Virus record (IMG/VR): IMGVR_UViG_2871846418_000001
Coordinates: 7,517-71,516 of that record
DNA from: a virus
Taxonomy: Duplodnaviria; Caudoviricetes
Length of the DNA: 64,000 nucleotides
Direction: 5' to 3' (one strand)
The first letter of the stretch is position 1; every line of letters starts with the position of its first letter. Position numbers and translations under genes: made by a program. The notes beneath the pieces were generated by a model. The model was given only the letters and a program-made list of their open reading frames with translations. It had not been told where the DNA came from and ran no database searches. Shown in pieces: positions 4,399-19,773 of the stretch.

Positions 4399-4887
4399 TT
4401 ATTTATGTGTCAGGGTGGAGAAAAAACTGATACAGATAGCCTTTGCTTTTTGGCACTGTTCAATGTTGAACCAGCCAAAGTGACACTCAGCGACGGGGAT
4501 TTGCATTTGGTCAGCAAGCCAACTGTATGCTCCATTCCGATCCATTGTTTCGAAGCGTTGAGGAACGGTCAGGCCAGATACCTTCAACTTGCGGTTAAAA
4601 AGCCGTTCGAAATATGGCTTACACTCTTTACGAGCTTTTCGAGTTGGCTCATCAGCCAGGGTTCCTAATGGGATGGCAGTAAAAGGATGAAGCCCAACGT
4701 AAGCGGCGCAGGAATCGCACAGGTAAACGTAAGGCCAATCACTAAACTCTCTGCCGCCGTATATTTCCGCGTGTCCGGCGACACGAACAGAACCAGAACA
4801 GAATCTGCAAATTGTCGGGGCGGGCAACGGATTTTTAACCCTGGCTGTTGCTGAGCGGCCCGGGTTATCAGGGGTTTTAATTTCCAT
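4399..4887 (-). CDS. DUF3268-like zinc-finger protein
   Basis: CRFC, YLCDSCAAYVGLHP..PLGTLAD, CHFGWF motifs. Confidence 0.75.
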   Translation of the reverse strand: MEIKTPDNPGRSATARVKNPLPAPTICRFCSGSVRVAGHAEIYGGREFSDWPYVYLCDSCAAYVGLHPFTAIPLGTLADEPTRKARKECKPYFERLFNRKLKVSGLTVPQRFETMDRNGAYSWLADQMQIPVAECHFGWFNIEQCQKAKAICISFFSTLTHK

Positions 4888-4953
4888 GGCAAAACCTTGA
4901 GGCGAAAAAAAAGCCGCAGCGTTAGCTACGGCTCTTAGTGTTAGGGAAGGGGC

Positions 4954-5217
4954 TTAGATGACGCCGCGGGGGATCCGGCTGCTACCGCGCATTTTCTGGC
5001 GACCGGCGGCGCTGATTTGCCCAGGCGCCAGAGGCTCGCTCTCAACAGTGCGGCGTTTGCGTGGCTTCGGTGGTGCTGGCATATCCGGCATCGTTTTACA
5101 GCGGGTGATCACCAACGTTGTTTTTTCGATGCGGTCGCTGCTGCGCTGGATTCGTTCTTGCAATTCACGAGCTCGGCGCAGCCGTGCTGATTTAGCTTTT
5201 GCTTTAATCATGGTCAT
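4954..5217 (-). CDS. N: Early antiterminator, N-like
   Basis: Arg-rich N-terminus (SARLRRARE), C-terminal GRQKMRGSSRIP resembling the end of lambda N; downstream of pL and boxA. Confidence 0.7.
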   Translation of the reverse strand: MTMIKAKAKSARLRRARELQERIQRSSDRIEKTTLVITRCKTMPDMPAPPKPRKRRTVESEPLAPGQISAAGRQKMRGSSRIPRGVI

Positions 5218-13679: not shown

Positions 13680-14609
13680 ATGGATAATGAACAGCAGTTT
13701 TTCTGGGTTAACCACAGAAAAACTGAAAAGGTAGAAATTAGTGAAGGGTTCATTTGGGCCCCGAAAACGAAGGTTAATGGTCATAAAAACCAAACTTACT
13801 TAAACCTCACTGAGGTAAGACCTGGTGATCTAATATTTTCATATGCGAACCTTAAATTAGGGGCAGTGGGTAAAGCATTGTCTTCCGCATATGACTTCGA
13901 GAAACCTGATGAGTTTAGAGACTCAGATGAAGTTTGGTTAAGAGACGGCTGGCGGATTGACGTTCAATTTGAAAGGCTGCAAGCACCGATCAGGCCAAAG
14001 CAATTTATTGCACAAATTCAGCCTCTTTTGCCGAAAAAATACTCGCCACTTCAAAAAGACGGTAATGGTAACGAAAGTTGCTATCTGGCCAAATTAGATA
14101 ATGAACTAGGTGAATTATTACTGGAGCTCTGTGACAGGAAAGATTTGGTTTCAATTGACGACTTTACTGAGTTTGAGGAGATTGAGAAAGATATCCTTGA
14201 AATACTGAGTGCAAAAGAATTACCAGAAACAATGAAAGAAGCGCTTGTGAAAGCGCGTATAGGGCAAGGTTTTTTTAGACAGGAAGTTTTAAAACTTTAT
14301 CCGGCATGTCCTGTTACCGGTGTTACAATGCCACAGTTGCTAATAGCAAGTCATATAAAACCCTGGAGAGAGTGTAATAACAAAGAAAGGTTGGATCCCA
14401 ATAATGGAATTATGTTGGCTCCTCATGTTGATGCCTTATTTGATAAGGGATATATAAGCTTCACAAATGATGGGGTTTTAATAGTAAAGGCTGACCGAGA
14501 AGTGGTTAATGCTATGTCAATACTTGGACTTACTGATGTAGATAAAGTAACGATTTCAGAAAGTTCGCATGATTATTTAGATTGGCATAGAGCACACTAT
14601 AAATTTTGA
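13680..14609 (+). CDS. EVE/PUA-like + HNH endonuclease
   Basis: N-terminal FWVN..IWAP..VRPGDLIFSY; C-terminal RIGQGFFR..CPVTG..ASHIKPW..NNGIMLAPHVDALFD. Confidence 0.8.
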   Translation: MDNEQQFFWVNHRKTEKVEISEGFIWAPKTKVNGHKNQTYLNLTEVRPGDLIFSYANLKLGAVGKALSSAYDFEKPDEFRDSDEVWLRDGWRIDVQFERLQAPIRPKQFIAQIQPLLPKKYSPLQKDGNGNESCYLAKLDNELGELLLELCDRKDLVSIDDFTEFEEIEKDILEILSAKELPETMKEALVKARIGQGFFRQEVLKLYPACPVTGVTMPQLLIASHIKPWRECNNKERLDPNNGIMLAPHVDALFDKGYISFTNDGVLIVKADREVVNAMSILGLTDVDKVTISESSHDYLDWHRAHYKF

Positions 14610-14622
14610 GGTCTATATAGGA

Positions 14623-15261
14623 ATGGATAGGTTTGCAATTTTATTCGGTTCTGTCTCTAGAGGGACACATAACTCTAACAGTGATATCGACATATTGCTT
14701 TTGAATATAGATGAAAACCAAGCTTCACAATTTATTGATTTTTCAGCACTTCCTAAACTGGTTGTAAATTATGTTTGCTATAATTCAATCACGTTCAATA
14801 AATATTATTTGAATGGGAGTCTTTTCCTATTCCATGTATTTAATGAAGGAAAGCTAATATATGGGGATGCAAATGAATGGGAGAGAGTGACTAAAGGGTT
14901 TAAGGTTAAAAGAGAATTTGATTCAGAGATAGGAAGAGTTAGGCTTGATGCTTCTGTATATAGCGACATCAATTTGTTCTCCAATTATTACATGTCGGCA
15001 ATGGCGAATTTTTACCCGATAATTAAAAATTTCTGTATATTTAAATTGGCCAGTGATTCTATTTATGAGTTTGATAAAAATACATCACTTAAGATGGTGT
15101 GTAGGAATGCTGAGGAATACAAGAGATTAAGTGTGTTGAGAGGGTGTTATGACGTTTTTTATAGAGGTCTTTCCATAGATAATATCAGAGTGGATCCGGC
15201 TTCCAGAATTGCCGGAGATATATTAACCGAGGCGTTTGAGTTTGTGAGTGACTATGATTAA
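14623..15261 (+). CDS. Pol-beta-superfamily nucleotidyltransferase
   Basis: LFGSVSRG...SDIDILL motif. Confidence 0.82.
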   Translation: MDRFAILFGSVSRGTHNSNSDIDILLLNIDENQASQFIDFSALPKLVVNYVCYNSITFNKYYLNGSLFLFHVFNEGKLIYGDANEWERVTKGFKVKREFDSEIGRVRLDASVYSDINLFSNYYMSAMANFYPIIKNFCIFKLASDSIYEFDKNTSLKMVCRNAEEYKRLSVLRGCYDVFYRGLSIDNIRVDPASRIAGDILTEAFEFVSDYD

Positions 15262-15682
15262 TAATTCTATGTGCAGTGCTTTATCCGCGTTATATCATGA
15301 GCTGGATGGAAGTGATGAACCATTGAAGCATGCAAACGAAATGAAAAAAAGGTTTAAATGTATACTGGATGTATTAATTGAAAGTATTGCTAAGGAATTT
15401 TTAAATGACCGTTTTAACAACTTTGATGAGCTACGTAATAGAATGAGTGAGGTAAAAACATTTGATGGTAATCATGATGTTGTTAAAAAATTAAAAAAGG
15501 TTCTGAGGGGTTATTATATTATTTCGAGGTTGGGGTATACTGTTGATGATGATGAGTTATTGAATTTTTATAATAAAGAAATTTCCAGCCTTGTAATTTC
15601 GATTCTTTCTTTGCAGTGTAATGAGGAAAAACATAAAGTCCTTAAGAACTATTTGCTTTCAAGGAGTGATCATGACAAATGA
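15248..15682 (+). CDS. Hypothetical helical protein
   Basis: 144-aa AT-rich ORF overlapping both neighbours. Confidence 0.7.
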   Translation: MTMINNSMCSALSALYHELDGSDEPLKHANEMKKRFKCILDVLIESIAKEFLNDRFNNFDELRNRMSEVKTFDGNHDVVKKLKKVLRGYYIISRLGYTVDDDELLNFYNKEISSLVISILSLQCNEEKHKVLKNYLLSRSDHDK

Positions 15683-16127
15683 AAATAAAGACAGAAAAGA
15701 TGTGCTATTGAAGGCATGGGAGTTAACACAAAGTATTGCAAAAAATAACTCAGAGTCCGCCTGGAAAGTAAGGATGTGGGGTATTGCAATCTGGTCCGCT
15801 CTAGTATCTTATGCATACCAAAAAAACGAACCAGTGGTTGTTTTAATTGCTATATTTGTTCTTGCCCCTACTTTAATAATAGAATTGCTGATAAGGGTGA
15901 TTGAGTACAAAATGATAAAAAGGTCTCATGAAATTGAGAATTCTATTAATTGTATTCTATTAGAGGACGATTTCGTTCCTCCTGAAAATGGCATTAGAAT
16001 TGACATTTCGGAAACTAAATTAAGTGATTTGGTTAAATTGATTTCCATTAATAGATTGTTGATTTGGAGTCCTTACTTGGTGCTGTTTTCATTTGGATTA
16101 CTGATCTTGGTTAGTATGTTATTTTAA
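15672..16127 (+). CDS. 3-TM membrane protein (151 aa)
   Basis: AAGGAG RBS; three hydrophobic segments. Confidence 0.75.
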   Translation: MTNENKDRKDVLLKAWELTQSIAKNNSESAWKVRMWGIAIWSALVSYAYQKNEPVVVLIAIFVLAPTLIIELLIRVIEYKMIKRSHEIENSINCILLEDDFVPPENGIRIDISETKLSDLVKLISINRLLIWSPYLVLFSFGLLILVSMLF

Positions 16128-16289: not shown

Positions 16290-17150
16290 ATGGGATGTCA
16301 ATTATGGGTGTCTGATGTGACAGGGAAACGAAGAAATGGTACTGATTTCGAGTCATTGAAAAGTATCTTTATAGACTCAGTGACAGCAAAGGCGATTTGT
16401 GAACCTCTACATGCTTGCAGGTTAACAGATCATGCAGCTGATGTCAGAAGAGTTCTTATTGAATTAGACTTTGATAGTGCCGGTGTGATAGATGCTAACG
16501 AAAGGATCATTGGGTACATAAATAGAGATGAACTAAACGATGGGTTAATATCTGAACAAATCCAAGAAATAAAGGTTGGTTTATTAATTTCTGACTCAAC
16601 TCCAATAGCTGACATAGTTCACGAACTTAAGGAAAGAAAAACACTATTCGTAAATTACGGAAGTAACATATCATATATTATAACCAGAGCGGATTTAAAT
16701 AAACCACCTGTAAGGATATTCATTTTTGGGATGATATCTTTGCTTGAGATGCATTTGAACTTTTGGGTTTCGCATTTTTGTCCCGAAGAACATTGGGATA
16801 GATCTATACCGCCAGAACGTATCGCTTTTGCACACCAGAAATTGCAGGAAGCGAAGAAAAATAGTGAAAATACTGAGTTAACCCTTGTTAATTACTTACA
16901 GTTCTGTGATAAAAAAGAACTACTCAGAGATTCACCTGCTTTTATTAGTGAGCTAGCTGTATCGAAAAGTCAATTAAAAGACTATTTGCGCTGGGCTGAG
17001 GGGATCAGAAATGATATTGCGCATAGCCAAAACTCTATATTTACAAATATTGGGATAGAGAGGCTAAGCGATGTGATTATTTTTATTGAGAAGTTTTTGA
17101 ATCGGTCGGAAGACTATTTATCCTACTTGAAAAAAGTCGACGTAACATAG
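16290..17150 (+). CDS. CBS-pair + HEPN-like protein
   Basis: DFDSAGVIDANERIIGYINRDEL and IITRADL CBS-like; RNDIAH Rx4H motif. Confidence 0.72.
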   Translation: MGCQLWVSDVTGKRRNGTDFESLKSIFIDSVTAKAICEPLHACRLTDHAADVRRVLIELDFDSAGVIDANERIIGYINRDELNDGLISEQIQEIKVGLLISDSTPIADIVHELKERKTLFVNYGSNISYIITRADLNKPPVRIFIFGMISLLEMHLNFWVSHFCPEEHWDRSIPPERIAFAHQKLQEAKKNSENTELTLVNYLQFCDKKELLRDSPAFISELAVSKSQLKDYLRWAEGIRNDIAHSQNSIFTNIGIERLSDVIIFIEKFLNRSEDYLSYLKKVDVT

Positions 17151-17188: not shown

Positions 17189-17212
17189 AAAAAGGCCCAG
17201 TACGAACTGGGC
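17189..17212 (-). terminator. Intrinsic terminator closing the peptide array
   Basis: GCCCAGT-TCGT-ACTGGGC stem-loop then CTTTTT on minus strand. Confidence 0.85.
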
Positions 17213-17219
17213 ATTACGT

Positions 17220-17342
17220 TTATTTTCTATTGCCTGCAGGTGGTGGCGGTGGCGGAACTGGTTTTGAATAGTTTGTTGGTGGTGGCGGATTTTTGCCATC
17301 ATATGCCAATCCACTATTAATTGGTTTTGCTTTGTCGGACAT
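17220..17342 (-). CDS. Polyproline peptide 7 (40 aa)
   Basis: GGAGGT RBS; MSDKAKPINSGLAYDGKNPPPPTNYSKPVPPPPPPAGNRK. Confidence 0.85.
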   Translation of the reverse strand: MSDKAKPINSGLAYDGKNPPPPTNYSKPVPPPPPPAGNRK

Positions 17343-17366
17343 ATTTACCTCCAAGCTAAAGTATCA

Positions 17367-17492
17367 TCATTTTTTGTCTTTTGATGGGGGCGGCGGTGGC
17401 GGTGCTGGTTTCTTTGCCTTAATAGGTGGGGGCGGATTTCTGCCTTCAGCGCCAATAATTTGATTTAAAAACGGATCTGTTTTATTAGACAT
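17367..17492 (-). CDS. Polyproline peptide 6 (41 aa)
   Basis: GAGGT RBS; MSNKTDPFLNQIIGAEGRNPPPPIKAKKPAPPPPPPSKDKK. Confidence 0.85.
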   Translation of the reverse strand: MSNKTDPFLNQIIGAEGRNPPPPIKAKKPAPPPPPPSKDKK

Positions 17493-17525
17493 AATTGACC
17501 TCATAAATTATAAAAATATCCAGAC

Positions 17526-17663
17526 TCAGCTTTTCTTCGGTGAAGATGGAGGAGGCGGTGGTGGGGCTGGACGTGTTTGGTTGGATGTAGGAGGTGGGTT
17601 TACTCCATCGTTTAATGGCACCGTCTGACTTGGGTTGCGACTTGATATTGATTTATTGGACAT
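17526..17663 (-). CDS. Polyproline peptide 5 (45 aa)
   Basis: GAGGT RBS; MSNKSISSRNPSQTVPLNDGVNPPPTSNQTRPAPPPPPPSSPKKS. Confidence 0.85.
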   Translation of the reverse strand: MSNKSISSRNPSQTVPLNDGVNPPPTSNQTRPAPPPPPPSSPKKS

Positions 17664-17673
17664 AACGACCTCT

Positions 17674-17787
17674 TTATTTTTTATCTTTCGGGGACGGAGG
17701 CGGTGGGACCGGTTTTGACTGATTTAGTGGTGGCGGTGGATTTCGACCGTTAGTTTGCCAGTCTGGTCTTGATTTGTTATCAGGCAT
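17674..17787 (-). CDS. Polyproline peptide 4 (37 aa)
   Basis: AAGGAG RBS; MPDNKSRPDWQTNGRNPPPPLNQSKPVPPPPSPKDKK. Confidence 0.85.
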   Translation of the reverse strand: MPDNKSRPDWQTNGRNPPPPLNQSKPVPPPPSPKDKK

Positions 17788-17810
17788 ATTATCTCCTTGG
17801 TAAACAGTGT

Positions 17811-17945
17811 TTAGTTACCTTGTTTTTTTGGCGGCGGTGGCGGTGGTGCAGGCCGTACTTGGTTAGATGGAGGTGGCGGGTTTATTCCAAAATTGTCGCT
17901 TTTGACGTTATTTGGAACAACAAAAGTACGTTTTTCATCAGTCAT
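17811..17945 (-). CDS. Polyproline peptide 3 (44 aa)
   Basis: AAGGTG RBS; MTDEKRTFVVPNNVKSDNFGINPPPPSNQVRPAPPPPPPKKQGN. Confidence 0.85.
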   Translation of the reverse strand: MTDEKRTFVVPNNVKSDNFGINPPPPSNQVRPAPPPPPPKKQGN

Positions 17946-17958
17946 TGTGTCACCTTTA

Positions 17959-18093
17959 TTATTTTTTAGCCGGAGGGGGTGGTGGTGGTGCCGGCCTAAC
18001 TTTTGATGGGGGCGGCGACGGGTTTCGACCACCATTTGGTAATCCATCCCTTGAGGGGGTAATGAGTATTGGTTTTGAAGGGATATTCGGCAT
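17959..18093 (-). CDS. Polyproline peptide 2 (44 aa)
   Basis: GAGGAG RBS; MPNIPSKPILITPSRDGLPNGGRNPSPPPSKVRPAPPPPPPAKK. Confidence 0.85.
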   Translation of the reverse strand: MPNIPSKPILITPSRDGLPNGGRNPSPPPSKVRPAPPPPPPAKK

Positions 18094-18095
18094 TT

Positions 18096-18227
18096 CTACT
18101 CCTCAATAGGTTTTTTGGGTGGTGGTGGTGCAGGTGGAGGCGGTGGCCGACGCTGCTGTGGAGGTAACGGATTTTTACCCTTATCAATTTGTTGATACGG
18201 TGGTGGTGTCGGTGCTTTCCTCGACAT
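18096..18227 (-). CDS. Polyproline peptide 1 (43 aa)
   Basis: AGGAG RBS inside upstream gene; MSRKAPTPPPYQQIDKGKNPLPPQQRRPPPPPAPPPPKKPIEE. Confidence 0.82.
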   Translation of the reverse strand: MSRKAPTPPPYQQIDKGKNPLPPQQRRPPPPPAPPPPKKPIEE

Positions 18228-18828
18228 AATCTACTCCTGGAGTGTCTTGTAGGAACTCAACCCATTTAATATCAGAAATATTAAATATCATCAATTTGAC
18301 TGTTGGCATATCCTGATAGCCATCAGGCAGCACCCAGCTTGGATTCATTAAAACGAGGTGCCCCTTGGTTGGATCAGATGGCCATTCGGTCGGCCAGCCA
18401 AAGATTCTTCTCTCATCGTTCAAGTGTATAATTACAAAAGACTCATTACAGTTGAATGTGCCAAACCACTCGCAATGATAGGAAGTCTCTTTTGTGATTT
18501 TCAGCGTCCTAAGTATACTGTGAAGTCGATCATTGTTTGCAAATGTGCTAAATGTGAAACCGAAAATTACAGCAACAGCGTATGACCAAACGAGATGGAC
18601 GTTATTACTCCAAGCGCCAAAAGAATAGTATTTACCTAAGTAAATTAAAGTGAATTTTAATGCAGCCACTCCACCTTGAATAAATACAGTGAATATTAGA
18701 GCTTGGATAATTCGTTCAAATTGGGCTTGTTTCGGATACGAAGTAAAAGCATGGAAGATCCAAGCCGTAACAAACCCCGGAAGTAAATATTTTAGGATGT
18801 TGAATATTTCACTGCTAATTGATTCCAT
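18184..18828 (-). CDS. DUF6338-like membrane protein (3 TM + small beta domain)
   Basis: YLLPGF N-terminal motif, three hydrophobic helices, VIIHLNDERRIFGW...HLVL...IKWVEF. Confidence 0.8.
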   Translation of the reverse strand: MESISSEIFNILKYLLPGFVTAWIFHAFTSYPKQAQFERIIQALIFTVFIQGGVAALKFTLIYLGKYYSFGAWSNNVHLVWSYAVAVIFGFTFSTFANNDRLHSILRTLKITKETSYHCEWFGTFNCNESFVIIHLNDERRIFGWPTEWPSDPTKGHLVLMNPSWVLPDGYQDMPTVKLMIFNISDIKWVEFLQDTPGVDYVEESTDTTTVSTN

Positions 18829-18960
18829 TTGACAATCCTTGAGTCATAGCGGTCGCAGGAAGTCTTTTGTTTCATTTATGGCAATGCATGCAGTACGTGT
18901 TGCGTTTGATGCAATGAACTATACAATCGACTATGCACCATAATATCAGGACTGACCAAT

Positions 18961-19773
18961 ATGACCAACGCAATAGAACAACTCATAAAAATGCACGATC
19001 CGCGCTGTGTAAGCGCAGAGTCAATGAATGTAGGCCGTGGACGCGCTTCCCTGACCAGGGAGCAGATCCTCGGGGCATTAGCTGCAGTACAGCACCGGCA
19101 TTCAGTCGGCCTTGACCTGCTGATGTCCAAGTACCGCAACGATTATAAAGCGGAACAGCGGGTACGTGCAGCGATCAATGAATGGGTGCATCAACGACCA
19201 CATCCTGAACGCGCGACGGCAGCATGTCAGTTAGCCCTCAGTATCGCGCTTGAGCGAAACCTTCCAGCCCAGGTGGCGTACATTGCAGCACTACTTCGCC
19301 GATATGGCCCGCGAACAGCCCAAACGCGGAAAAATATTGAAGCGTTGCAATCCGAGATTAAAGCGCTGGAGAAACGGCGCAGCCAAGCACAGATCACCGA
19401 TATTGAATATCACGAGGTTGGCTTCGAAATTACCGATATAACCAAACGGATTGAGCGGGAGCGGGCAGCACTTCGAGCTTGGTCTGAACAACACGCCGCT
19501 ACAACCAATATATGCCCACGTTGCTCCGGTACCGGCCGCATGATTAGGCAGCATCCTATAGAGTGCGAAGAGTGTGGCGGTAAAGGCAAGATTCCGGCCA
19601 ATATGGAACATCTGCGTAAGTCCATGCGTATCATAGGGGCTGAGGTAGAGCCTGGTGAATGGGCAAGCCGTTATACCGAGTTGGTGAAACAGTGTATGGA
19701 TTGGATGTTCGTCGAAGAATCAAATGCGATTGGTGTACTATCAGATAGAATTGCTATGGAAAAAGGTGAGTAG
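18961..19773 (+). CDS. Q: Late antiterminator Q-like, zinc-finger type
   Basis: CPRCSGTG and CEECGGKG; upstream of pR' and lysis genes. Confidence 0.78.
   Translation: MTNAIEQLIKMHDPRCVSAESMNVGRGRASLTREQILGALAAVQHRHSVGLDLLMSKYRNDYKAEQRVRAAINEWVHQRPHPERATAACQLALSIALERNLPAQVAYIAALLRRYGPRTAQTRKNIEALQSEIKALEKRRSQAQITDIEYHEVGFEITDITKRIERERAALRAWSEQHAATTNICPRCSGTGRMIRQHPIECEECGGKGKIPANMEHLRKSMRIIGAEVEPGEWASRYTELVKQCMDWMFVEESNAIGVLSDRIAMEKGE

What the first reader, a model, noticed from the sequence alone, without database searches (positions are those of the whole stretch)
17189..18828. Operon of one membrane protein and seven tandem polyproline peptide genes: candidate new system
Seen: after the 214-aa DUF6338-like gene come seven co-oriented 37-45 aa ORFs (18096-18227, 17959-18093, 17811-17945, 17674-17787, 17526-17663, 17367-17492, 17220-17342). 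Each has its own Shine-Dalgarno, ATG and stop, gaps are 2-33 nt, and one terminator follows the last. All share G-x-N-P-x-P-[PT]-x(3-4)-[RK]-P-[AVP]-polyPro and a Lys-rich tail, with 13-21 aa unrelated N-termini. Pro codons are mixed (CCA/CCG/CCT/CCC), which argues for protein-level selection rather than DNA slippage. Peptide 1 starts 44 nt inside the membrane gene. The cassette sits in an AT-rich accessory hotspot next to defence-like genes. Inference: a receptor/effector plus a diversified peptide library. The constant part could dock on the membrane protein while the variable N-termini act as baits, sensors or specificity tags, or the peptides could be labile antitoxins. No modifying enzyme, transporter or signal peptide is visible. 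I know of no described system with this layout.
Basis: partly seen in the sequence, partly recalled or inferred. Interest (0 to 1): 0.96.

Follow-up and report, generated by a model that had tools for sequence, protein, structure and literature searches.

The report
Membrane protein with seven polyproline microproteins
A prophage carries one small membrane protein gene followed by seven tiny proline-rich protein genes; this is the largest version seen here of a widespread two-part gene cassette whose function nobody has tested.

Summary
One minus-strand unit (promoter-like site 18967-18940, terminator 17212-17195) encodes a 214-aa DUF6338 protein and seven 37-45 aa proline-rich ORFs, each with its own Shine-Dalgarno sequence and ATG.

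It is not a one-off. Of 43 DUF6338 loci with sequence downstream, 39 (script), or 42 counting four read by eye, carry at least one similar small ORF directly after the gene on the same strand. These come from several phyla. No other neighbour is conserved.

The first peptide evolves under dN/dS 0.03-0.09, like DUF6338 itself. Related strains differ only by synonymous changes, one Val-to-Ala change and in-frame proline insertions.

DUF6338 is predicted to have three membrane helices plus an Sm-like barrel. Natural DUF6338-peptide fusions exist. In a fold of one fusion the polyproline tail scores pLDDT 81-84, against 56-60 for the linker.

A 2023 Pseudomonas stutzeri proteomics paper detected three proline-rich small proteins in a DUF6338 operon but called them unconserved. 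This scan has noted the cassette before in at least 11 other genomes.

My reading is that the microproteins dock on the Sm-like domain. The biological role (defence, exclusion or toxin-antitoxin-like) is untested. Seven copies is the highest count seen here.

The parts
18940..18967 (-). Promoter-like site (TGGTCA-16-TATTAT, with TG before the -10) upstream of the DUF6338 gene, in the divergent intergenic region shared with the Q-like gene
   Evidence: This is a consensus match only: 6 sites were found in the region against 4.6 +/- 2.0 in shuffles.
18184..18828 (-). DUF6338 membrane protein, 214 aa: three predicted TM helices (2-28, 36-64, 75-99), a cytoplasmic Sm-like beta-barrel (about 113-197) and a disordered tail (196-214)
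   Evidence: Pfam PF19865, E 7.4e-14. AF2 model with pLDDT 81.3. Sm/LSm fold matches: Foldseek E 4.5e-4, TMt 0.71; VIA Z 9.1, rmsd 1.9 over 65 residues. 297 homologues found.
18096..18227 (-). Peptide 1 (43 aa), overlapping the DUF6338 3' end by 44 nt. Class A: N-terminal M-S-R-K-x-P-x-P-P-P motif, then NP..PP, then [RK]P-polyPro
   Evidence: Orthologues in 24 other loci are aligned in A2. dN/dS is 0.03-0.09 among enterobacterial orthologues.
17959..18093 (-). Peptide 2 (44 aa). Its N-terminal part resembles the middle (I-P-P-S-R-D-G..G-G-K-N-P) of single class-A peptides in other loci
17811..17945 (-). Peptide 3 (44 aa)
   Evidence: Variants in other runs: one synonymous change and one Val-to-Ala change.
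17674..17787 (-). Peptide 4 (37 aa). Four other runs carry a 6-nt in-frame insertion that adds two prolines
17526..17663 (-). Peptide 5 (45 aa). One other run carries a 3-nt in-frame insertion that adds one proline
17367..17492 (-). Peptide 6 (41 aa; alternative ATG at 17504 gives 45 aa)
17220..17342 (-). Peptide 7 (40 aa). Class B (..Y-x-x-D-G-K-N-P-P-P-P..), the counterpart of the upstream peptide of other enterobacterial loci and of the last peptide of L013 and L014
17189..17212 (-). Intrinsic-terminator-like hairpin (7 pairs, 5 of them GC) plus a T run, 8 nt after the last stop

Best explanation
The locus is one lysogen-type transcription unit on the strand opposite to the prophage's own operons. 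It is an expanded member of a widespread, self-contained cassette made of a DUF6338 inner-membrane protein plus small, basic, disordered, proline-rich microproteins. SHOWN: the genes are there and are linked in nearly all DUF6338 loci. The peptide genes are under purifying selection. No third gene is conserved beside them. DUF6338 is predicted to have three TM helices plus an Sm-like barrel. Natural fusions of DUF6338 to the peptide exist. INFERRED (about 50%): the microproteins are translated. They bind, through their C-terminal [RK]-P-x-polyPro segment as a polyproline-II helix, to the Trp-rich loop face (G-W-P-x-E-W-P-S-x-P-x-x-G-H, W121, W165) of the cytoplasmic Sm-like domain. There they act as stoichiometric subunits or regulators of a probably ring-shaped membrane assembly. 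Class-A peptides carry three Pro motifs and could bridge neighbouring protomers. The six extra paralogues here carry two. SPECULATIVE (about 25%): the cassette serves the prophage or host in genetic conflict (exclusion, abortive infection or addiction), with the membrane protein as effector and the peptides setting its state.
For: Linkage: 39 of 43 loci with downstream sequence by script, 42 of 43 adding four read by eye. In an even sample of 400 genomes of one class, 15 had DUF6338 over the cut-off; 12 of those 15 had the ORF by script and 14 of 15 including those read by eye. The loci include Planctomycetota, Rhodothermales, Sphingorhabdus, Psychrobacter, Pseudomonas and Enterobacterales and a Paludisphaera plasmid whose RefSeq annotation lacks the peptide.
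Motif specificity: all six-frame motif hits but one lie beside DUF6338.
Selection: peptide 1 has dN 0.02-0.20 with saturated dS, giving dN/dS 0.03-0.09; DUF6338 gives 0.04-0.09 in the same pairs. In four other runs the seven-gene array is kept, with 5 synonymous and 1 conservative change in the peptide genes and only 3- and 6-nt insertions that add prolines.
Translation in a relative: PMC10433244 reports 44-114 PSMs for three proline-rich small proteins in a DUF6338 operon (passages and section 19 read).
Fold: Sm/LSm matches.
Fusions: among the 150 best representatives, P0136 (248 aa, exact sequence on 9 contigs) and P0132 (259 aa) carry the NPPP..[RK]P-polyPro peptide as a C-terminal tail.
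Docking proxy: the AF2 model of P0136 gives pLDDT 81-84 for residues 231-248 (the polyPro end) against 56-60 for residues 201-230.
Co-variation hint: the two sampled loci whose DUF6338 lacks the W-P-x-E-W-P loop (L034, L035) also lack a canonical polyPro run in the downstream ORF.
Autonomy and mobility: no conserved third gene. Neighbours are heterogeneous: lambda P, NinB, NinG, methylases, housekeeping genes. 18 IMG/VR loci carry the cassette. Here it sits in an AT-rich block (GC 33-43% against 52-57% in the flanks), next to HNH, nucleotidyltransferase and weakly Abi-like genes and just upstream of a Q-like gene.
Against: No binding test could be run. The pLDDT rise in the fusion tail is an indirect proxy: I could not see coordinates or contacts. 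The alignment covers the tail with only about three sequences, and a rigid polyPro helix might score well on its own. Oligomerisation is inferred only from the Sm fold. No RNA or protein data exist for this locus. I could not see the P. stutzeri peptide sequences (they are in supplements), so homology with those peptides is inferred from layout. The PADLOC search gave only a weak N-terminal match (E 0.0087, 14.3 bits). No match was found in 50,697 sequenced phages. In many non-enterobacterial genomes the neighbours are housekeeping genes, so a conflict role is not indicated by context everywhere. The co-variation hint rests on two related loci.
Confidence: 0.5

Rival explanations
1. Toxin-antitoxin or abortive-infection switch read out through translation. 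The DUF6338 protein is a membrane-damaging toxin. The polyproline peptides are labile antitoxins whose synthesis depends strongly on EF-P and on overall translation capacity. When a phage or stress impairs translation, the peptides run out and the membrane protein fires. Seven genes raise the antitoxin dose.
For: Each peptide has runs of 4-7 consecutive prolines; from general knowledge, such runs need EF-P. The first peptide is translationally coupled to DUF6338 by a 44-nt overlap. The cassette has a patchy, mobile distribution. It sits in a prophage accessory block beside defence-like genes. It is a two-part cassette with no other partner.
Against: Natural covalent fusions of 'toxin' and 'antitoxin' fit poorly with a labile, separately degraded antitoxin. 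In P. stutzeri the peptides were abundant under both conditions tested, and nothing is known of their turnover. There is no toxicity data. There is no significant hit to known defence or TA models.
Confidence: 0.17
2. The small ORFs act in cis as ribosome-stalling elements. Polyproline pauses tune translation or mRNA stability of the operon, and the peptides themselves have no function.
For: The polyPro runs are strong pause sites (general knowledge). In 12 of 45 loci a peptide ORF ends 14-17 nt before the DUF6338 start codon, a position where a paused ribosome could affect initiation.
Against: The near-universal position is downstream of DUF6338, not upstream. Purifying selection covers the whole of peptide 1, including its N-terminal motif, which lies far from the stall site. 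The peptides accumulate in P. stutzeri. Natural fusions place the segment at the end of the protein itself.
Confidence: 0.07
3. The peptides are exported proline-rich antimicrobial peptides or bacteriocin-like products, and DUF6338 is their immunity or export protein.
For: The P. stutzeri paper raises an antimicrobial role for proline-rich small proteins and says DUF6338 occurs in biosynthetic gene clusters. Tandem diversified peptide genes are typical of bacteriocin loci (general knowledge).
Against: There is no signal or leader sequence, and no transporter, protease or modifying enzyme in the operon or conserved nearby. The peptides have long Pro runs and Lys-rich ends, not the Arg-rich P-R-P pattern that I recall for ribosome-targeting proline-rich peptides. 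Fusion to the predicted cytoplasmic C-terminus of the membrane protein argues for action inside the cell.
Confidence: 0.06
4. The small ORFs are young de novo or non-functional ORFs made by repeat expansion, as was suggested for P. stutzeri.
For: The paper states they are not conserved beyond P. stutzeri. The sequence is of low complexity.
Against: The ORFs are conserved across phyla next to DUF6338. dN/dS is 0.03-0.09. Proline codons are mixed and the paralogues are 57-70% identical in DNA. Only in-frame indels are seen.
Confidence: 0.02

Closest known systems
DUF6338 operon of Pseudomonas (Stutzerimonas) stutzeri ATCC 14405 with three novel proline-rich small proteins (Anal Chem 2023, PMC10433244; passages and section 19 read, supplements not seen)
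   Same: A DUF6338 gene followed by several proline-rich ORFs of under 50 aa in one predicted operon. The small proteins were detected by digest-free mass spectrometry. Function is unknown.
   Different: Three peptides there, seven here. That locus is chromosomal; this one is in a lambdoid prophage accessory block. The paper calls the peptides unconserved and possibly de novo, whereas the data here show a family linked to DUF6338 across phyla. I could not compare sequences, because they are in supplementary tables.
Sm / LSm / Hfq fold proteins
   Same: The predicted C-terminal domain (about 113-197) superposes on archaeal and eukaryotic Sm proteins (Z 9.1, rmsd 1.9 over 65 residues; Foldseek TMt about 0.7). 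Those proteins form hexameric or heptameric rings.
   Different: Sequence identity is only 8-22%. This domain is anchored to the membrane by three TM helices. There is no evidence for RNA binding. The partner is a peptide, not RNA. Ring formation was not tested.
Polyproline-II readers (SH3, WW, GYF, EVH1, profilin); recalled, not tested
   Same: Small modules that grip Pro-rich ligands with conserved aromatic residues. The [RK]-x-x-P-x-x-P pattern of the peptides resembles a class I SH3 ligand. The Sm-like domain has nearly invariant Trp residues.
   Different: No sequence or fold match to these families was obtained. Binding is an inference.
MscS-type mechanosensitive channels (three TM helices plus a beta domain, heptamer); recalled
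   Same: The overall plan: a few TM helices followed by a small cytoplasmic beta-barrel domain that could oligomerise.
   Different: Pfam gave only DUF6338. No MscS chain appeared among the 50 listed structural matches. MscS has no peptide partner.
Small-protein regulators of membrane proteins and two-gene toxin-antitoxin or abortive-infection modules; recalled classes
   Same: A tiny protein is encoded next to, and translationally coupled with, a membrane protein. The cassette is mobile and patchily distributed.
   Different: Known small regulators are mostly single hydrophobic helices. These peptides are hydrophilic, disordered and polyproline-rich, and occur in up to seven copies. No toxicity or defence has been shown.

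Membership tests
Pfam DUF6338 (PF19865) | Score over the curated gathering cut-off across most of the model | tested here: met
   52.2 bits against a cut-off of 26.5, E 7.4e-14, residues 12-196 on model positions 12-203 of 205.
DUF6338 + proline-rich microprotein cassette (P. stutzeri type) | One or more proline-rich ORFs of under about 65 aa directly after (or before) the DUF6338 gene on the same strand | tested here: met
   seven ORFs, the first overlapping the gene by 44 nt. The same layout occurs in 39-42 of 43 loci.
DUF6338 + proline-rich microprotein cassette (P. stutzeri type) | The small proteins are made (mass spectrometry or Ribo-seq) | not testable with these tools
   No RNA holder was listed for this DNA. 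The only support is by analogy and from selection.
Sm/LSm fold | N-terminal helix plus a strongly bent five-stranded barrel that superposes on Sm proteins | tested here: met
   Predicted model only; helix 120-127 and strands 130-194; Z 9.1 to 6ppv_A; Foldseek probability 1.0, E 4.5e-4.
Sm/LSm fold | Ring oligomer of six or seven subunits | not testable with these tools
MscS-like channels | Match to the MS_channel family or its structures | tested here: inconclusive
   No Pfam hit other than DUF6338 at E <= 0.01. MscS was not among the listed structural matches, which does not exclude it.
Known anti-phage defence systems (PADLOC-DB 2.0) | Significant match of a component to a defence-system model | tested here: not met
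   the best match is PDC-M48A at E 0.0087, 14.3 bits, N-terminal residues 4-50 only.
Toxin-antitoxin / abortive infection module | Toxicity of one partner that is neutralised by the other | not tested
   Needs expression experiments.
Proline-rich antimicrobial peptides / bacteriocins | Leader or signal sequence, export or modification genes, Arg-rich P-R-P motifs (definition recalled) | tested here: not met
   The peptide sequences show no hydrophobic leader. No transporter or enzyme is in the operon or conserved nearby.
Phage families (PHROGs) | Match of the membrane protein or the peptides to a phage protein family | tested here: not met
   no family for the 214-aa protein or for peptides 2 and 5. 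tblastn against 50,697 phage records found nothing.

The most novel reading that the evidence does not exclude
DUF6338 is a membrane-anchored, ring-forming Sm-like 'polyproline reader', and the microproteins are its dedicated ligands. This would be a prokaryotic polyproline-recognition module. Because the ligands are among the hardest sequences for a ribosome to make, the cassette could couple the cell's translation or EF-P status to a membrane effector. That would give a new logic for abortive infection or prophage addiction. The seven diversified ligands of this prophage would then tune the threshold or resist phage counter-measures.
Probability: 0.15. Interest if true: 0.85.

Novelty: new variant of a known kind. 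Interest (0 to 1): 0.66.

Why it matters
An entire family of microproteins is missing from genome annotation. It is tied to a Pfam domain of unknown function with at least 1,478 representative clusters, is spread over many phyla and is frequent on prophages. If the peptides do dock on the Sm-like domain, this would be a bacterial membrane protein built to read polyproline ligands. That would give DUF6338 a first functional handle. The only publication treats such peptides as strain-specific de novo genes, and the comparative data here reverse that view. The seven-gene array offers a natural series of ligands for binding and genetic tests. The family also bears on why bacteria keep EF-P-dependent sequences.

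Tried and rejected
Near-identical DNA in sequenced phages, complete E. coli genomes and plasmids: no match.

tblastn of the membrane protein against phages: no match.

PHROGs: nothing for the membrane protein or the two peptides tried.

PADLOC: only a weak partial hit.

Fused forms longer than 375 aa: one hit, joined to a transposase domain, which is probably a gene-calling artefact. Among the 120 closest homologues none has a Pro-rich tail. Fusions appeared only in the wider representative search.

A conserved third gene: none.

BFVD structure search: only uncharacterised viral proteins.

ESM Atlas: DUF6338 clusters only.

Literature: the search 'DUF6338' found 1 paper and 'PF19865' found 0. 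Three combined searches on polyproline, small proteins, prophage, Sm-like and anti-phage found nothing on this cassette. So 'function not in print' rests on these five searches of the held library only.

RNA evidence: no RNA holder was listed. The RNA runs offered were polyA or single-cell libraries carrying the species label of one DNA holder, and I did not lay them.

Programmed frameshifting to fuse peptide 1 to DUF6338: considered and set aside. The overlap is not conserved (some loci have a gap) and no test was run.

False positives in my own tally: the script also listed three GC-rich ORFs far from the gene (one in L038, two in L043). I do not count these as family members.

Near-duplicate loci (L014/L015, L018/L019, L002/L020; L031, L032 and L033 repeat L008, L002 and L010) mean that the number of independent lineages is lower than the locus counts.
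Full report
WHAT IS THERE. The window is part of an IMG/VR provirus record of 71.5 kb with lambdoid organisation. Between an AT-rich accessory block and a Q-like antiterminator gene lies a minus-strand unit. The block holds an HNH nuclease gene (13680-14609), a nucleotidyltransferase gene (14623-15261), two small ORFs and a CBS-like/Abi-like gene (16290-17150). The Q-like gene is at 18961-19773 (phrog_127), followed by holin (20476) and lysozyme (20769) genes. GC is 33-43% in this block against 52-57% in the flanks.

Each small ORF has a Shine-Dalgarno sequence and an ATG. The gaps are 2-33 nt, and the first ORF overlaps the large gene by 44 nt. A promoter-like site (18967-18940) and a terminator-like hairpin (17212-17195) bracket the unit.

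The seven products align on G-x-N-P-P-P-P, then 3-4 residues, then [RK]-P-x-polyPro, then a Lys-rich end. Proline makes up 94 of 294 residues and is encoded by all four codons. The paralogues share only 57-70% DNA identity.

IT IS A MEMBER OF A WIDESPREAD CASSETTE. The 214-aa protein belongs to Pfam DUF6338. A word-based search found 297 homologues, mostly Enterobacterales but also MAGs of other phyla. I collected:
- 11 loci from species genomes;
- 18 loci from IMG/VR;
- 14 further loci from an even sample of 400 genomes of one class, in which 15 genomes had DUF6338 over the cut-off;
- one plasmid locus.

Of the 45 loci including the window, two end at the gene (L012, L016). In the other 43, a script found a proline-rich small ORF directly after the gene on the same strand in 39. 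Reading the three frames by eye adds L030, L044 and L046. L035 remains doubtful. In the even sample the figures are 12 of 15 by script and 14 of 15 with the by-eye additions.

The loci come from Planctomycetota, Rhodothermales, Sphingorhabdus, Psychrobacter, Denitrificimonas, Pseudomonas and Enterobacter. In the RefSeq-annotated Paludisphaera plasmid the peptide ORF (L059:3692-3841) overlaps the end of the DUF6338 gene and is not annotated.

A six-frame scan for the core motif over 422 kb found it only beside DUF6338, with one exception. It found none in 11 loci that have only sub-threshold Pfam matches. All-against-all comparison of neighbouring ORFs found no other gene shared across the diverse loci. 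Pfam scans of 90 neighbours (of 121 listed) gave a mixed bag: lambda P, NinB, NinG, DUF1367, methylases and housekeeping enzymes. The cassette is therefore self-contained.

COPY NUMBER AND PEPTIDE CLASSES. The usual state is one downstream peptide. Twelve enterobacterial or viral loci have one upstream plus one downstream. L029 has two downstream, L014 and L015 three, L013 four, and the window seven, the most seen here.

The first downstream peptide (class A) carries three conserved Pro motifs: M-x-[RK]-K-x-[PS]-x-P-P-P, then G-x-N-P-P-P, then [RK]-P-polyPro (alignment of 25). In the window, peptide 1 keeps the N-terminal motif. Peptide 2 resembles the middle part of single class-A peptides elsewhere. 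Peptide 7 matches the 'Y-x-x-D-G-x-N-P' class, which is upstream in L002-type loci and last in L013 and L014. So the array grew by duplication and division of labour among recognisable classes, not by free diversification.

THE PEPTIDE GENES ARE UNDER SELECTION. Among seven enterobacterial orthologues of peptide 1, synonymous sites are saturated while dN is 0.02-0.20. Where it can be measured, dN/dS is 0.03-0.09, the same as for the first 200 codons of DUF6338 (0.04-0.09). Upstream peptides evolve faster (0.17-0.20 in the two measurable pairs).

Contigs of four other runs from four studies hold the whole array. The peptide genes differ by five synonymous changes, one Val-to-Ala change, and two in-frame insertions that add one and two prolines. 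These strains are close relatives, so this is modest but consistent support.

Translation of such peptides has been shown once. In P. stutzeri, three novel proline-rich proteins of under 50 aa, in a predicted operon with a DUF6338 gene, gave 44-114 spectra each by digest-free MS (PMC10433244; I read the matching passages and section 19; the sequences are in supplements I could not open). That paper says the peptides are not conserved beyond P. stutzeri and may be new genes. The comparative data here argue otherwise.

THE MEMBRANE PROTEIN. An AF2 model built on 40 homologues (pLDDT 81, pTM 0.60) has three long helices (2-28, 36-64, 75-99), two short helices and a five- to six-stranded barrel (130-194). 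The last 19 residues are disordered. Positive charges after helix 3 put the barrel in the cytoplasm (inference).

The barrel matches Sm/LSm proteins: Foldseek E 4.5e-4, TMt 0.71; VIA-align Z 9.1, rmsd 1.9 Å over 65 residues, with Hfq at about Z 7. Nearly invariant residues across a wide alignment include W121, R141, G144, W149, P150, G156, W165 and E192 in the barrel, plus the L-L-P-G-F and Q-F-E-R..A-L-I-F-T motifs in the membrane part.

HOW PEPTIDE AND PROTEIN MAY WORK TOGETHER. A profile search of 1.84 billion representatives found 1,478 family members at E <= 0.001. Among the 150 best, P0136 (248 aa) and P0132 (259 aa) carry the peptide (N-P-P-P..[RK]-P-polyPro..K-K) as an in-frame C-terminal tail. 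P0129 carries a weaker version. P0136 was seen letter for letter on nine contigs, so it is not a single sequencing error. Such fusions indicate that both parts act together and on the same side of the membrane.

The body scores 94-98, the linker (201-230) scores 56-60, and the polyPro end (231-248) rises to 81-84. This fits a docked tail. However, I could not inspect contacts, and a rigid proline helix may score well by itself.

The two sampled loci whose DUF6338 lacks the G-W-P-x-E-W-P-S loop (L034, L035) are also those whose downstream ORF lacks a canonical polyPro run. This hint rests on few lineages.

I therefore favour (about 50%) a model in which the peptides' C-terminal polyproline-II segment lies on the Trp-rich face of the Sm-like domain. 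Multivalent class-A peptides would bridge protomers of a ring.

BIOLOGICAL ROLE. This part is open. The evidence comes from the cassette's distribution. It is present in 15 of 400 sampled genomes. It occurs on proviruses and on a plasmid beside an S8 peptidase, an ATPase and an integrase. Here it sits in a low-GC block of defence-like genes on the strand opposite to the phage operons. All this points to an accessory, conflict-related function: exclusion, abortive infection or addiction.

Against this, no known defence model matches. No sequenced phage in the collection carries it. Many non-enterobacterial copies sit among housekeeping genes.

RIVAL READINGS.
- A labile-antitoxin or EF-P-dependent sensor. 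It is attractive, but fits poorly with covalent fusions.
- Cis-acting stalling ORFs. This is contradicted by the downstream position, by selection over the whole peptide, by the MS detection and by the fusions.
- Exported antimicrobial peptides. There is no leader or export gene, and the fusion is to a cytoplasmic end.
- Non-functional de novo ORFs. This is contradicted by the conservation.

NOVELTY AND VERDICT. The layout is in print once, without function and without recognition of its conservation. Five literature searches found nothing further. This scan has already noted the cassette in at least 11 other genomes, with the same general conclusions. Notes on this same window propose the Sm-like reader and the EF-P idea.

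What this window adds:
- the largest array seen so far (seven);
- evidence that its members fall into recognisable classes;
- population data showing in-frame proline gain;
- natural fusions with a confidently placed polyPro tail.

I rate it as a new variant of a known but uncharacterised kind. It is of real interest because a whole microprotein family and a DUF would gain a testable function.

Noticed in passing
window 14623-16127: Three overlapping AT-rich genes: a nucleotidyltransferase (Polbeta/NTP_transf_2; PADLOC PDC-M05A/PDC-S09-like, E 2e-7), a 144-aa protein with no family, and a 168-aa membrane protein (weak PDC-M50A, E 0.003). This is a candidate defence module beside the cassette.
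   Followed up: partly
window 16290-17150: A 286-aa protein with a weak CBS match (E 0.0013, below the cut-off) and a weak match to phrog_2158 'abortive infection resistance protein' (E 0.0019). It converges on the end of the peptide array.
   Followed up: partly
window 13680-14609: An HNH_2 nuclease (Pfam E 3.9e-13; PADLOC HNH model E 1.9e-25) at the start of the low-GC block.
   Followed up: partly
window 18961-19773: A Q-like antiterminator (phrog_17382 E 6e-22, phrog_127 E 5e-13) with a CXXCXGXG zinc-finger-like segment (DnaJ central domain, E 6.7e-5, below the cut-off). It is transcribed divergently from the cassette, so the two promoters share about 130 bp.
   Followed up: no
window 17547 and 17698: Related strains carry 3-nt and 6-nt insertions inside the polyPro runs of peptides 5 and 4, each adding prolines. 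The window's peptide 4 is the short allele, since all four laid runs have the longer one. Polyproline length seems to vary by codon slippage while staying in frame.
   Followed up: yes
L002, L017-L024, L026-L028 (about 4850-4985 in each): In 12 loci a peptide gene sits 14-17 nt upstream of the DUF6338 start. Its class (Y-x-x-D-G-x-N-P) is the same as that of the last peptide of the downstream arrays (window peptide 7; L013, L014). This suggests the cassette has been circularly permuted or rebuilt by tandem duplication and loss.
   Followed up: partly
L059:3692-3841 (Paludisphaera borealis plasmid NZ_CP019084.1): The polyproline ORF overlapping the end of the annotated DUF6338 gene is missing from the RefSeq annotation. 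The cassette lies after an ATP-binding protein and an S8 peptidase, and before an integrase.
   Followed up: partly
control genomes: The DUF6338 model also scores over its cut-off in Haloferax volcanii, so the family reaches archaea. I did not look at whether a polyproline ORF accompanies it there.
   Followed up: no
P0121 (467 aa): A DUF6338 match joined to a transposase domain (PF00872) in one ENA protein. This is probably an insertion or a gene-calling artefact.
   Followed up: no
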